From the human T2T-CHM13v2.0 reference genome, Homo sapiens: a DNA stretch of 64,000 nt. Every line of letters begins with the position of its first letter. The stretch's first letter is position 1. The translations under genes were made by a program, and so were the position numbers. Below are positions 13,254 through 14,914 of the stretch, piece after piece. The notes beneath the pieces are model-generated. The model ran no database searches. It was not told the DNA's origin and saw only the letters and a list, made by a program, of their open reading frames with translations. Location of the stretch: NCBI RefSeq assembly GCF_009914755.1, contig NC_060932.1. One strand, 5' to 3'.

Positions 13254-14391
13254 TTTCTTTTTTTTTGTTACTTTTTTATTATTATTATACTTTAAGTTTT
13301 AGGGTACACGTGCACAACATGCAGGTTTGTTACCTATGTATACACATGACATGTTGGTGTGCTGCACCCATCAACTCGTCATTTAGCATTAGGTATATCT
13401 CCCAATGCTAACCCTCCCCACTCCCACCACCCCACAACAGTCCCCGGTGTGTGATGCTCGCCTTCCTGTGTCCATGCATTCTCATTGTTCAATTCCCACC
13501 TATGAGTGAGAACATGCGGTGTTTGGTTTTTTGTCCTTGTGATAGTTTGTTGAGAATGATGGTTTCCAGCTTCATTCATGTCCCTACAAAGGACATGAAC
13601 TCATCATTTTTATGGCTGCATAGTATTCCATGGTGTATATATGCCACATTTTCTTAATCCAGTCTATCTTTGTTGGACATTTGGGTTGGTTACAAGTCTT
13701 TGCTATTGTGAATAGTGCCGCAATAAACATACATGTGCATGTGTCTTTATAGCAGCATGATTTACAATCCTTTGGGTGTATACCCAGTAATGGGATGGCT
13801 GGGTCAAATGGTATTTCTAGCTCTAGATCCCTGAGGAATCACCACACTGACTTCTACAATGGTTGAAGTAGTTTACAGTCCCACCAACAGTGTAAAAGTG
13901 TTCCTATTTCTCCACATCCTCTCCATCACCTGTTGTTTCCTGACTTTTTAATGATTGCCATTCTAACTGGTGTGAGATGGTATCTCATTGTGGTTTTGAT
14001 TTGCATTTCTCTGATGGCCAGTGAGATAAGCATTTTTTCCATGTGTTTTTTGGCTGCATAAATGTCTTCTTTTGAGAAGTGTCTGTTCATATCCTTTGCC
14101 CACTTTTTGATGGGGTTGTTTTTTTTTTTCTTGTAAATTTGTTTGAGTTCATTGTAGATTCTGGCTATTAGCCCTTTGTCAGATGAATAGGTTGCAAAAA
14201 TTTTCTCCCATTTTGTAGGTTGCCTGTTCACTCTGATGGTGGTTTCTTTTGTTGTGCAGAAGCTCTTTAGTTTAATTAGATCCCATTTTTCAATTTTGGC
14301 TTTTGTTGCCATTGCTTTTGGTGTTTTAGACATGAAGTCCTTGCTCATGCCTATGTCCTGAATGGTATTGCCTAGGTTTTCTTCTAGGGTT
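13254..14391 (-). mobile_element. L1PA (L1PA4/5-like) 3' 1.1 kb, 5'-truncated
   Basis: T-rich tail, L1PA 3'UTR and ORF2 C-terminal fragment ([14 protein letters not shown]...KKSGNNR). Confidence 0.96.
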
Positions 14392-14428
14392 AGTGGCACA
14401 ATGGATAATGCATCTGACTACAGATCAG
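14387..14428 (+). pseudogene. tRNA-Arg(ACG) 5' fragment (nt ~1-42), CpG-decayed, non-functional
   Basis: gggttagtggcacaatggataatgcatctgactacagatcag versus the recalled tRNA-Arg-ACG GGGCCAGTGGCGCAATGGATAACGCGTCTGACTACGGATCAG. All four mismatches after nt 5 are CpG transitions. No T-arm or acceptor 3' half. Confidence 0.88.
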
Positions 14429-14914
14429 CCACAGTCTTGACCCAAGAAAAGACATCAGGAGTTGTCTAAGGTTGCAGAGGTTGCAAGTAGCAGACTGCTT
14501 ACCTAAGACAGAGCCTTCATCCAGAGAGACAGAGAATGCAATGACTATCTTATGTTGTGTAATCATGCAAAATAAATTCCAGTCTCCCCAGAGGGAAATA
14601 TTTAAATTGTTTAAGAGTTAAACAGTGGTGTCAAATAGGAAAACAAGAAAATATATTCATTCTTACATAAAATATTTTGAGAAAAAAAAGCAGAGTCAAA
14701 CACTTAGTGAAGAGAATGTATGTTTGTGATGGCGAGACAGTATGAATGACTCTATAGATCACAGTGAATTCATTGATTGGATATAAAATTGAAAAGGAGG
14801 GATGGAAGATAAAGGATAATGGAATGTAAATCAGTCATTATTATAATTGTTCGAAGAAATGAACAAACACTATATAGATGTAAAATCTGTCCAGGTTTCC
14901 TAGAAACACATCTG

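What the first reader, a model, noticed from the sequence alone, without database searches (positions are those of the whole stretch)
14381..14438. Inverted tRNA-Arg(ACG) 5' fragment at an L1 5' junction: apparent twin priming in trans on a tRNA
Seen: the minus-strand L1 ends at ...ttctagggtt. It is followed directly by agtggcacaatggataatgcatctgactacagatcag, the 5' part of tRNA-Arg(ACG) up to the anticodon stem, differing only at four CpGs and running opposite to the L1. The tRNA's 5' GGG coincides with the L1 'ggg'. The fragment's last 4 nt (tcag) are also the first 4 nt of the 14-bp TSD. Known: U6/L1-type template-switch chimeras are normally co-oriented with the L1. Twin priming produces inverted segments primed by microhomology at the second-strand 3' end, and internally primed 3'-truncated tRNA retrocopies exist. 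Inference: the second target-strand end (...gtggctga-3') annealed to UCAG of a tRNA or tRNA fragment in the L1 RNP. RT then ran to the tRNA 5' end and the two cDNAs were joined. That would be twin priming on two different RNAs. I cannot say whether such cases are already catalogued.
Basis: partly seen in the sequence, partly recalled or inferred. Interest (0 to 1): 0.8.

Follow-up and report, generated by a model that had tools for sequence, protein, structure and literature searches.

The report
Backwards tRNA piece on an L1
An old, dead L1 jumping-gene copy carries a backwards half of an arginine tRNA at its front end, made in the same insertion event, and this kind of tRNA/L1 hybrid has already been described in print, so it is a new example rather than a new phenomenon.

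Summary
Window 14392-14428 (+) is tRNA-Arg(ACG) nt 6-42. It matches real genes at 33 of 37 positions, and all 4 differences are CpG transitions. It lies antisense to a 1.1-kb 5'-truncated L1 on the minus strand (13278-14391). An exact 14-bp target-site duplication (TSD), TCAGCCACAGTCTT, sits at 12764-12777 and 14425-14438. The reconstructed empty site holds no tRNA sequence. The TSD end fits an L1 endonuclease site only in the L1's orientation. The last 4 tRNA nt (TCAG) overlap the TSD.

One correction: L1 homology runs through GGGTT, so the tRNA piece most simply starts at A6, not G1.

The kind is already published. Doucet et al. 2015 described inverted snRNA/L1 chimeras made by twin priming. 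Law & Burns (bioRxiv 2025; Cell Genomics 2026) list 21 tRNA/L1 chimeras, 16 of them antisense. This locus is not in their tRNA table.

Small additions: 3-4 nt TSD/tRNA overlap in 4 of 4 chimeras I read, and A34 is kept. Both argue against mature tRNA halves as template.

Unresolved: the tail's only full-length match (chr1) has no L1 beside it.

The parts
12764..12777 (.). Left copy of the 14-bp target-site duplication TCAGCCACAGTCTT
   Evidence: Exact match, one of only two in the window. It is followed at once by T7.
12778..12784 (-). Terminal poly(A) of the insertion (T7 on the + strand)
   Evidence: Read. Homology to chr1 starts just after it.
12785..13257 (-). Non-L1 tail of about 470-490 nt, either a 3'-transduced or a separately templated RNA. 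It is 95% identical to chr1:235123331-235123809 of the same assembly
   Evidence: There are 23 substitutions in 467 aligned sites. No L1 lies next to the chr1 copy within 8.5 kb; an Alu in the same orientation sits at that spot.
12813..12818 (-). AATAAA polyadenylation signal (TTTATT on +), about 25 nt before the terminal poly(A)
   Evidence: Read directly.
13258..13277 (-). A-rich stretch after the L1 3' end (A6 GTAAC A9 on the minus strand): the L1 A-tail or a template-jump joint
   Evidence: Read. It aligns to the A-run of the chr1 Alu tail.
13278..14391 (-). 5'-truncated L1, the last 1,114 nt of the element
   Evidence: Aligned to three L1 copies of the window. It is 93-95% identical to 39 other genomic copies. 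It differs at 49 of 1102 positions from the majority of the 29 fetched copies.
14392..14428 (+). tRNA-Arg(ACG) nt 6-42, antisense to the L1. Positions 14392-14424 are unambiguously tRNA; 14425-14428 (TCAG) are shared with the TSD
   Evidence: 33 of 37 identical to tRNA-Arg(ACG) genes, with all 4 differences at CpG. Rfam tRNA 23 bits.
14425..14438 (.). Right copy of the TSD
   Evidence: Exact match. It is followed by gaccc, so the first-strand nick was TCTT/GA on the + strand.

Best explanation
This is one L1-mediated insertion event, roughly 12-25 million years old. L1 endonuclease nicked the + strand at GTCTT/GA, and reverse transcription started on a poly(A) there. That produced the cDNA of the tail and of the last 1.1 kb of L1.

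The second strand was cut 14 nt away. Its 3' end (...GTGGCTGA-3') paired with UCAG (nt 39-42) of a tRNA-Arg(ACG) molecule. ORF2p then copied that tRNA towards its 5' end. The two cDNAs were joined end to end, with loss of tRNA nt 1-5 or of those plus a leader. This leaves an antisense half-tRNA between the TSD and the truncated L1.

Shown: the parts, their order and orientation, the single TSD, the overlap, and the absence of tRNA sequence at the reconstructed empty site. Inferred: priming by the second-strand end, the joining step, and the nature of the template. I think the template was more likely an unedited, probably nascent nuclear tRNA primed internally than a pre-cut mature tRNA half (about 60:40). 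The element has no evident function; it is a neutral relic in an intron of lncRNA LOC105375760.
For: A single exact 14-bp TSD encloses all parts, and the flanks give an empty site without tRNA sequence. tRNA identity is 33 of 37, with CpG-only differences. The L1 ends at 14391.

TSD polarity fits the L1 as the first-strand event: TCTT/GA in L1 orientation against CTGA/GC in tRNA orientation. By contrast, 8 of 8 free-standing tailless tRNA-Arg retrocopies have TSDs that start A-rich in tRNA orientation.

There is a 4-nt overlap TCAG between the tRNA end and the TSD. The same feature appears in all 3 catalogued antisense chimeras whose sequence I read: chr5 Arg 3 nt, chrX Gly 4 nt, chr1 Val 3 nt. 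By the coordinates of Table S3, overlaps occur in 5 of the 6 antisense rows that carry a TSD (3, 3, 1, 5, 0, 4 nt) and in 0 of the 2 sense rows.

CpG decay is compatible with one age: 0 of 4 CpGs kept in the tRNA against 4 of 9 in the L1 (my Fisher estimate is about 0.18). Of 19 genomic places with this tRNA half, the focal one is the only one abutting an L1.

Published precedent.

A34 is kept, where inosine would read as G. That holds in the focal copy, the chr5 chimera and the 8 tailless copies, so 0 of 10 RNA-derived copies show G34. Eukaryotic tRNA-Arg receives I34 from ADAT2/3 (PMC11802342, passages).
Against: No outgroup genome was available, so co-arrival of the L1 and the tRNA is inferred from the TSD alone. 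All 4 tRNA CpGs are lost while the L1 keeps 4 of 9. The difference is not significant, but it points towards an older tRNA piece. The L1/tRNA joint has no clean microhomology and 5 tRNA nt are missing. The first-strand site TCTT/GA is only a loose fit to TTTT/AA.

Sequence cannot separate priming at the nick from microhomology-mediated capture of a ready-made tRNA cDNA. tRNA nt 39-42 lie in the anticodon stem, not a loop, so annealing needs the stem to open. Endpoints at nt 36-39 in 9 of 16 published antisense cases could also reflect pre-cut halves, as Law & Burns propose. The A34 argument is weak if editing of tRNA-Arg is incomplete (the review cites under 30% ICG in yeast).
Confidence: 0.85

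Rival explanations
1. Two separate events. An older tailless tRNA-Arg retrocopy with the TSD TCAGCCACAGTCTT landed first. Later an L1 inserted exactly between its left TSD copy and the tRNA 5' end, without a TSD of its own and with a 5-bp loss.
For: Tailless tRNA-Arg retrocopies with TSDs and end overlap are common: 8 among the 19 places. One of them (L013) also starts at about nt 5-6. All 4 tRNA CpGs are decayed while the L1 keeps 4 of 9. TCTT/G at the end of the left TSD would be a usable nick site.
Against: It needs an L1 nick at one exact phosphodiester bond and an insertion without a TSD. As a first-strand site for the tRNA event, CTGA/GC is unlike the A-rich sites of 8 of 8 tailless copies. 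The CpG contrast is not significant. The published class shows that co-insertion is the usual cause of this layout.
Confidence: 0.05
2. It was one event, but the tRNA piece was not primed at the second-strand nick. A free tRNA cDNA or DNA fragment was captured as filler by end joining when the L1 5' end was sealed.
For: The L1/tRNA joint is blunt, with 5 nt missing. A 4-nt overlap is also typical of microhomology-mediated end joining.
Against: A free tRNA cDNA would itself need a primer. Filler capture predicts random orientation, yet 16 of 21 catalogued cases are antisense. The overlap sits at the TSD side in 4 of 4 sequences read, where a priming 3' end would be.
Confidence: 0.07
3. Template switch, RNA ligation or 5' transduction. 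The retrotransposed RNA already carried sequence antisense to a tRNA gene upstream of the L1 segment, or the reverse transcriptase jumped to such an antisense transcript.
For: Co-oriented chimeras of this sort are well known (U6/L1).
Against: An antisense transcript through a tRNA gene would carry flanking sequence, but the copy stops within 5 nt of the mature tRNA 5' end. None of the other 18 places holding this half lies beside an L1's flank read, and the tail + A-tail query (12778-13270) found no second L1-bearing copy, so no such source locus was found.
Confidence: 0.02

Closest known systems
tRNA/LINE-1 chimeric insertions (Law & Burns, Cell Genomics 2026, PMC13174262; bioRxiv Feb 2025)
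   Same: A half-length tRNA starting near nt 1 and ending near nt 37, directly 5' of a 5'-truncated L1, antisense to it, inside one TSD. Twin priming is the proposed mechanism. Their table holds another tRNA-Arg(ACG)-type case (chr5, L1PA3), which I confirmed in this assembly.
   Different: This chr8 locus is not among the 21 rows of their tRNA sheet. Their BLAST annotation step prioritised hits over 75 bp, which may be why a 37-nt piece unmasked in NCBI's file was missed. They favour pre-cut tRNA halves, and 'microhomology' occurs 0 times in their main text. Here the overlap with the TSD and the kept A34 point to internal priming on unedited tRNA. This locus also carries a 490-bp 3' tail.
Inverted snRNA (U5, U1 and others)/L1 chimeras by twin priming (Doucet et al., Mol Biol Evol 2015, PMC4476161)
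   Same: A 3'-truncated small RNA in inverse orientation to the L1. The cleavage site fits the L1 endonuclease consensus only in the L1 orientation. There is complementarity between the small RNA and the insertion site (passages).
   Different: The partner RNA there is snRNA, not tRNA.
Tailless tRNA retropseudogenes (Schmitz et al. 2004, seen only as cited; Noll et al. 2015, PMC5322556, passages)
   Same: A 3'-truncated tRNA copy without an A-tail, with the target site complementary to the last nucleotides copied. I found 8 such tRNA-Arg(ACG) copies and 4 tRNA-Val copies in this genome.
   Different: Those have their own TSD and an endonuclease-like first-strand site in tRNA orientation, and many carry 5' leader nucleotides. 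The focal piece shares the L1's TSD and was primed from the other strand.
Classical twin priming (Ostertag & Kazazian 2001; not read here, known from citations)
   Same: An inverted 5' segment primed from the second-strand nick, with microhomology at the priming site, inside one TSD.
   Different: In the classical case both cDNAs come from one L1 RNA. Here the second template is a tRNA.
U6/L1 chimeras (template switch or RtcB ligation; Moldovan et al. 2019, PMC6789731, passages)
   Same: A small Pol III RNA fused to the 5' end of a truncated L1 inside one TSD.
   Different: U6 is full-length and co-oriented with the L1. The focal tRNA piece is truncated and inverted.
L1 3' transduction
   Same: Non-L1 sequence lies between the L1's A-tail and a second poly(A) preceded by AATAAA, all inside the TSD.
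   Different: The only full-length match of the tail (chr1) has no L1 upstream. An Alu without a clear TSD sits at that spot.

Membership tests
tRNA/LINE-1 antisense chimera (Law & Burns 2026) | A tRNA-derived segment directly abuts the 5' end of a 5'-truncated L1 | tested here: met
   L1 homology ends at 14391 and tRNA nt 6 starts at 14392.
tRNA/LINE-1 antisense chimera (Law & Burns 2026) | The tRNA segment and the L1 lie inside one pair of TSDs | tested here: met
   Exact 14-bp copies at 12764-12777 and 14425-14438.
tRNA/LINE-1 antisense chimera (Law & Burns 2026) | A half-length tRNA from about nt 1 to about nt 37, antisense to the L1 | tested here: met
   nt 6 to 38-42, on the opposite strand to the L1. 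Table S3 has endpoints at 36-39 in 9 of 16 antisense rows.
tRNA/LINE-1 antisense chimera (Law & Burns 2026) | L1 and adjacent segment arrive in the same interval in cross-species alignments | not testable with these tools
   Only this human assembly is held (note).
tRNA/LINE-1 antisense chimera (Law & Burns 2026) | An L1 endonuclease motif at the first-strand nick, read in L1 orientation | tested here: inconclusive
   TC/AAGA on the L1-sense strand (TCTT/GA on the nicked strand). This is a loose fit. Six of the eight cases they checked had the motif.
Twin priming, classical | The inverted and direct segments derive from the same L1 RNA | tested here: not met
   The inverted segment is tRNA-Arg(ACG), not L1.
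Twin priming, classical | Microhomology between the target 3' end and the internal priming site | tested here: met
   TCAG is shared by tRNA nt 39-42 and the TSD.
Tailless tRNA retropseudogene | Its own TSD flanking the tRNA copy alone, with an endonuclease-like site in tRNA orientation | tested here: not met
   The left neighbour is the L1, and the TSD is shared with it. The site in tRNA orientation is CTGA/GC.
Tailless tRNA retropseudogene | 3'-truncated, no A-tail, target complementary to the last copied nucleotides | tested here: met
   Ends at nt 38-42, has no A-run, and has a 4-nt overlap.
U6/L1-type co-oriented chimera | The small RNA is in the same orientation as the L1 | tested here: not met
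   Opposite strands.
L1 3' transduction | Extra sequence after the L1 A-tail, ending in its own poly(A) with an upstream AATAAA, inside the TSD | tested here: met
   12785-13257, AATAAA at 12813-12818, T7 at 12778-12784.
L1 3' transduction | A source locus with an L1 immediately upstream of the transduced sequence | tested here: not met
   The chr1 match has no L1 3' end within 8.5 kb; an Alu is there instead. A lost, never-fixed progenitor allele cannot be excluded.

The most novel reading that the evidence does not exclude
The insertion was built from three different RNAs in one event. ORF2p started on the poly(A) of a chr1-derived Pol II transcript. At an A-run (the tail of the Alu now seen at chr1) it jumped to the poly(A) of an L1 RNA. 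The second-strand nick then primed on an unedited, nascent tRNA-Arg through 4 nt of pairing. Read across the class, short target/tRNA pairing on unedited nuclear tRNA, rather than pre-cut mature tRNA halves, would set the tRNA breakpoints of antisense tRNA/L1 chimeras.
Probability: 0.2. Interest if true: 0.4.

Novelty: new member of a known kind. Interest (0 to 1): 0.25.

Why it matters
It adds one uncatalogued, cleanly bounded example to a recently described class: tRNA/L1 antisense chimeras. It shows that the published list of 21 is incomplete for short tRNA pieces that repeat masking leaves unannotated. The locus and three catalogued ones share a 3-4 nt overlap between the tRNA end and the TSD, and both tRNA-Arg chimeras keep A34. 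These are cheap, testable clues about whether the template is an internally primed unedited tRNA or a pre-cut tRNA half. Nothing suggests a function for the host.

Tried and rejected
ARAGORN on 13000-15500 found no tRNA, as expected for a half.

The Rfam hit gains part of its score from a chance pseudo-acceptor pairing of GGGTTAG with TTGACCC in the right flank. It is not evidence for a whole tRNA.

tRNA-derived SINE head or LTR primer-binding site: rejected. The match is to the 5' half of tRNA-Arg(ACG) itself with CpG-only differences, whereas a primer-binding site matches the tRNA 3' end (established knowledge).

RT errors at modified bases or APOBEC editing as the cause of the 4 differences: rejected by reading. 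All 4 are CpG transitions, and other old copies (L016) show the same pattern.

An older tRNA piece, judged from CpG loss: tested and not significant.

Dating the chr1 Alu to decide between 3' transduction and a template jump gave no decision. The Alu differs at 9 of 253 non-CpG sites from the majority of 15 other Alus, but those were picked by similarity to it, so the figure is biased low. No clear TSD is visible.

A plain 14-mer search found the pair instead.

A genome-wide scan of all L1 5' junctions for antisense tRNA pieces was not attempted. Only Arg(ACG) and Val(CAC/AAC) halves were scanned.

Full report
**What is there**

The window (CHM13 chr8:132,184,001-132,248,000) was read at 12500-14600. 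On the + strand the order is:
- left flank ...aaagctgc
- TCAGCCACAGTCTT (12764-12777)
- T7 (12778-12784)
- about 470-490 nt of non-L1 sequence (12785-13257)
- a T-rich stretch, T9 GTTAC T6 (13258-13277)
- the reverse complement of the last 1,114 nt of an L1 (13278-14391)
- 37 nt of tRNA-like sequence (14392-14428)
- TCAGCCACAGTCTT again (14425-14438)
- right flank gaccc...

The 14-mer occurs exactly twice in the window. A third hit, at 15219, has 2 mismatches. In 100 shuffles allowing up to 2 mismatches, the mean was 0.71 hits.

**The L1 end**

I aligned the junction with three other L1 copies found in the window by a 21-mer (4 hits with up to 3 mismatches). L1 homology runs through ...TTCTAGGGTT and stops at 14391. 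The other copies continue with TTTATGG or TATATGG, and the focal copy continues with AGTGGC.

**The tRNA piece**

The genome of the window could be searched. The focal 37-mer with up to 3 mismatches hit itself and one chr9 place. That chr9 37-mer with up to 3 mismatches hit 19 places, against 0 for the reversed control.

ARAGORN calls tRNA-Arg(ACG) genes at 7 of these places (L003, L007-L011, L014) and none at the other 12. Against the gene in L007, the focal piece equals nt 6-42 at 33 of 37 positions. The differences are G12A, C23T, G26A and G36A, and each is a transition at a CpG. After G42 the tRNA continues AAG, while the window continues CCA.

So nt 6-38 are unambiguous tRNA and nt 39-42 (TCAG) are shared with the TSD. 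Rfam's tRNA model gives 23 bits, E 0.0095, under its gathering score of 29. Part of that score is a chance pairing with the right flank.

GGGTT matches L1 at 5 of 5 positions and tRNA GGGCC at 3 of 5. Two adjacent non-CpG changes would be odd in a piece with no other non-CpG change. A five-base imperfect annealing (three G-C pairs plus two T.G pairs) is possible but speculative.

**One event or two**

The flanks rebuild an empty site, ...aaagctgc TCAGCCACAGTCTT gaccc..., that contains no tRNA sequence. The tRNA piece therefore came with the insertion or after it.

The TSD is polar. In the L1 orientation the first-strand nick is TCTT/GA, a loose L1 endonuclease site. In the tRNA orientation it would be CTGA/GC.

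Among the 12 non-gene places, reading the printed flanks by eye:
- 8 are free-standing tailless retrocopies (L002, L004, L005, L006, L012, L013, L016, L017). Each has its own TSD of 11-19 bp, which starts A-rich in tRNA orientation and overlaps the last 3-4 tRNA nt. Most carry a few leader nucleotides before G1.
- 3 are copies of one duplicated segment (L015, L018, L019).
- 1 is the focal locus, the only one that abuts an L1.

The focal layout is therefore what second-strand priming predicts. The 3' end ...GTGGCTGA, left by the second nick 14 nt away, pairs with UCAG of the tRNA and is extended to the tRNA 5' region. That cDNA is then joined to the L1 cDNA.

**Age**

The tail differs from its chr1 match at 23 of 467 aligned sites. 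The L1 part differs at 49 of 1102 sites from the column majority of 29 related copies. One search listed 39 non-self matches at 93-95% identity, and loci were cut for 29 of them. With primate substitution rates recalled from memory, this suggests very roughly 12-25 million years.

**Test for an older tRNA piece**

I took columns where at least 30% of the 29 copies have CG and at least 85% have CG, TG or CA. This gives 9 ancestral CpG sites in the L1 part. The focal copy keeps 4 of them, and the other copies keep 56% on average. The tRNA piece keeps 0 of 4. My hand calculation of Fisher's test gives about 0.18, so this does not conflict with a single age.

**What is in print**

Law & Burns (PMC13174262) report tRNA/LINE-1 chimeras as a new type (n = 21). 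I read the abstract, sections 11, 18 and 39-41, the search passages, and parts 2 and 3 of the file holding Table S3. They describe most cases as half-length (nt 1-37) and antisense to the L1. They propose twin priming and suggest tRNA halves made by RNases as templates.

In their tRNA sheet I count 16 antisense and 5 sense rows. The only chr8 row is a sense tRNA-Tyr with an L1PB4 on the + strand. The two Arg rows are on chr5 and chr14. So this locus is not listed there. 'tRNA' occurs in no other readable supplementary file, and three PDF supplements could not be read. Their BLAST annotation step prioritised alignments over 75 bp. That may explain why a 37-nt piece, left unmasked in NCBI's file, was missed.

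Doucet et al. [quoted passage not shown] They described 3'-truncated snRNAs in inverse orientation, with a cleavage site that fits only the L1 orientation and complementarity to the insertion site. Noll et al. 2015 (PMC5322556; passages) and Kojima 2010 (PMC2912911; passages) describe tailless tRNA retrocopies and their end microhomologies. Four paper searches gave no further report of tRNA/L1 antisense chimeras.

**Small additions**

'Microhomology' occurs 0 times in the main text of Law & Burns. I located three of their antisense cases in this assembly and read the junctions:
- chr5 Arg(ACG)-type with L1PA3: TSD AAAGTAGGCACCTT, 3-nt overlap.
- chrX Gly: 4-nt overlap.
- chr1 Val with L1PA4: 3-nt overlap.

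With the focal locus, that is 4 of 4 with a 3-4 nt overlap. By table coordinates, the six antisense rows with TSDs overlap by 3, 3, 1, 5, 0 and 4 nt, and the two sense rows do not overlap. The TSD columns of that sheet are shifted by a row in places, so I matched TSDs to rows by coordinate.

In the three cases where the shared bases lie beyond the anticodon loop or before it (focal nt 39-42, chr5 nt 43-45, chrX nt 25-28), a loop-cut half does not explain the endpoint.

Position 34 is A in the focal piece, the chr5 chimera and the 8 tailless copies, so 0 of 10 show G. Eukaryotic tRNA-Arg receives inosine at position 34 from ADAT2/3 (PMC11802342, passages). Reverse transcriptases read inosine as G (general knowledge). 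This suggests unedited templates. The argument is weak if editing is incomplete.

**The 3' tail**

Sequence 12778-13270 matches chr1:235123331-235123809 at 95% over query positions 8-487. It also matches 192 bp on chr10 at 92%, and nothing else. The minus strand has AATAAA about 25 nt before the terminal poly(A), so it looks like an L1 3' transduction.

But the chr1 locus has no L1 3' end within 8.5 kb. At the spot where the L1 should sit, there is an Alu in the same orientation. Its A16(GAAA)3 tail aligns with the focal A9 GAAAG, and it has no clear TSD.

Two readings remain. Either the progenitor L1 allele at chr1 was never fixed and an Alu later hit the same A-rich site. Or the reverse transcriptase began on a chr1 transcript and jumped at the A-run to L1 RNA. 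My attempt to date the Alu was biased and undecided.

**Verdict**

It is a new member of a known kind, with low to moderate interest.

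Noticed in passing
window 12785-13257; L023 (chr1:235122800-235132500) 532-1025 and 1028-1322: The ~490-bp tail behind the L1 matches chr1 at 95%, but no L1 lies beside the chr1 copy. An Alu in the same orientation, without a clear TSD, sits at the junction, and its A16(GAAA)3 tail lines up with the focal A9 GAAAG. 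The cause is either a lost progenitor L1 allele or a template jump from a chr1 transcript to L1 RNA.
   Followed up: partly
L024 (chr10:32036800-32046500) 852-1045: A third, 192-bp copy of part of the tail at 92% identity. It has no poly(T) at its end and no L1 beside it. Its origin is unexplained; it may be an old duplicate.
   Followed up: no
Loci L002, L004, L005, L006, L012, L013, L016, L017 (around position 1500 of each): Eight free-standing tailless tRNA-Arg(ACG) retrocopies, cut at nt 45-52. Each has an 11-19 bp TSD that overlaps the last 3-4 tRNA nt, and most carry leader nucleotides before G1. The leader AACCGA of L006 equals the 5' flank of the chr6 gene in L009. All keep A34. L013 starts at about nt 5-6, like the focal piece.
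   Followed up: partly
Loci L059, L061, L062, L065 (tRNA-Val 5' halves): Four tailless tRNA-Val retrocopies all end at nt 37 in the anticodon loop, with TSDs overlapping the last 1-3 nt. This is the same endpoint as the catalogued Val/L1PA4 chimera (L058). So the nt-37 cluster is also seen without any L1 partner.
   Followed up: partly
Law & Burns Table S3, sheet tRNA: The three sense-oriented half-length tRNA/L1 chimeras are Tyr 1-37, Tyr 1-35 and Arg-AGA 1-38. From memory (untested), tRNA-Tyr(GTA) and tRNA-Arg(TCT) genes carry introns after nt 37, so their 5' exons end in a 2',3'-cyclic phosphate and are RtcB substrates. Sense half-tRNA/L1 chimeras might therefore be RtcB mis-ligations, as shown for U6/L1. 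The paper's text has 0 hits for 'tRNA-Tyr' or 'tRNA splicing'.
   Followed up: no
Law & Burns Table S3, sheet tRNA: The TSD columns are shifted by one row for several entries. For example, the chr6:81316914 TSD sits on the chr5:86372886 row, and the chrX:65017944 TSD sits on the chrX:107695404 row.
   Followed up: no
L015, L018, L019 (chr9:47.7 Mb, chr21:2.6 Mb, chr22:4.35 Mb): The same truncated tRNA-Arg-like copy with near-identical flanks at three pericentromeric or acrocentric places. It is a segmental duplication carrying a tRNA retrocopy.
   Followed up: no
window 14387-14444: Rfam's tRNA alignment pairs GGGTTAG (L1 end plus tRNA nt 6-7) with TTGACCC in the right flank as a mock acceptor stem. 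This is a chance feature that inflates the score.
   Followed up: yes
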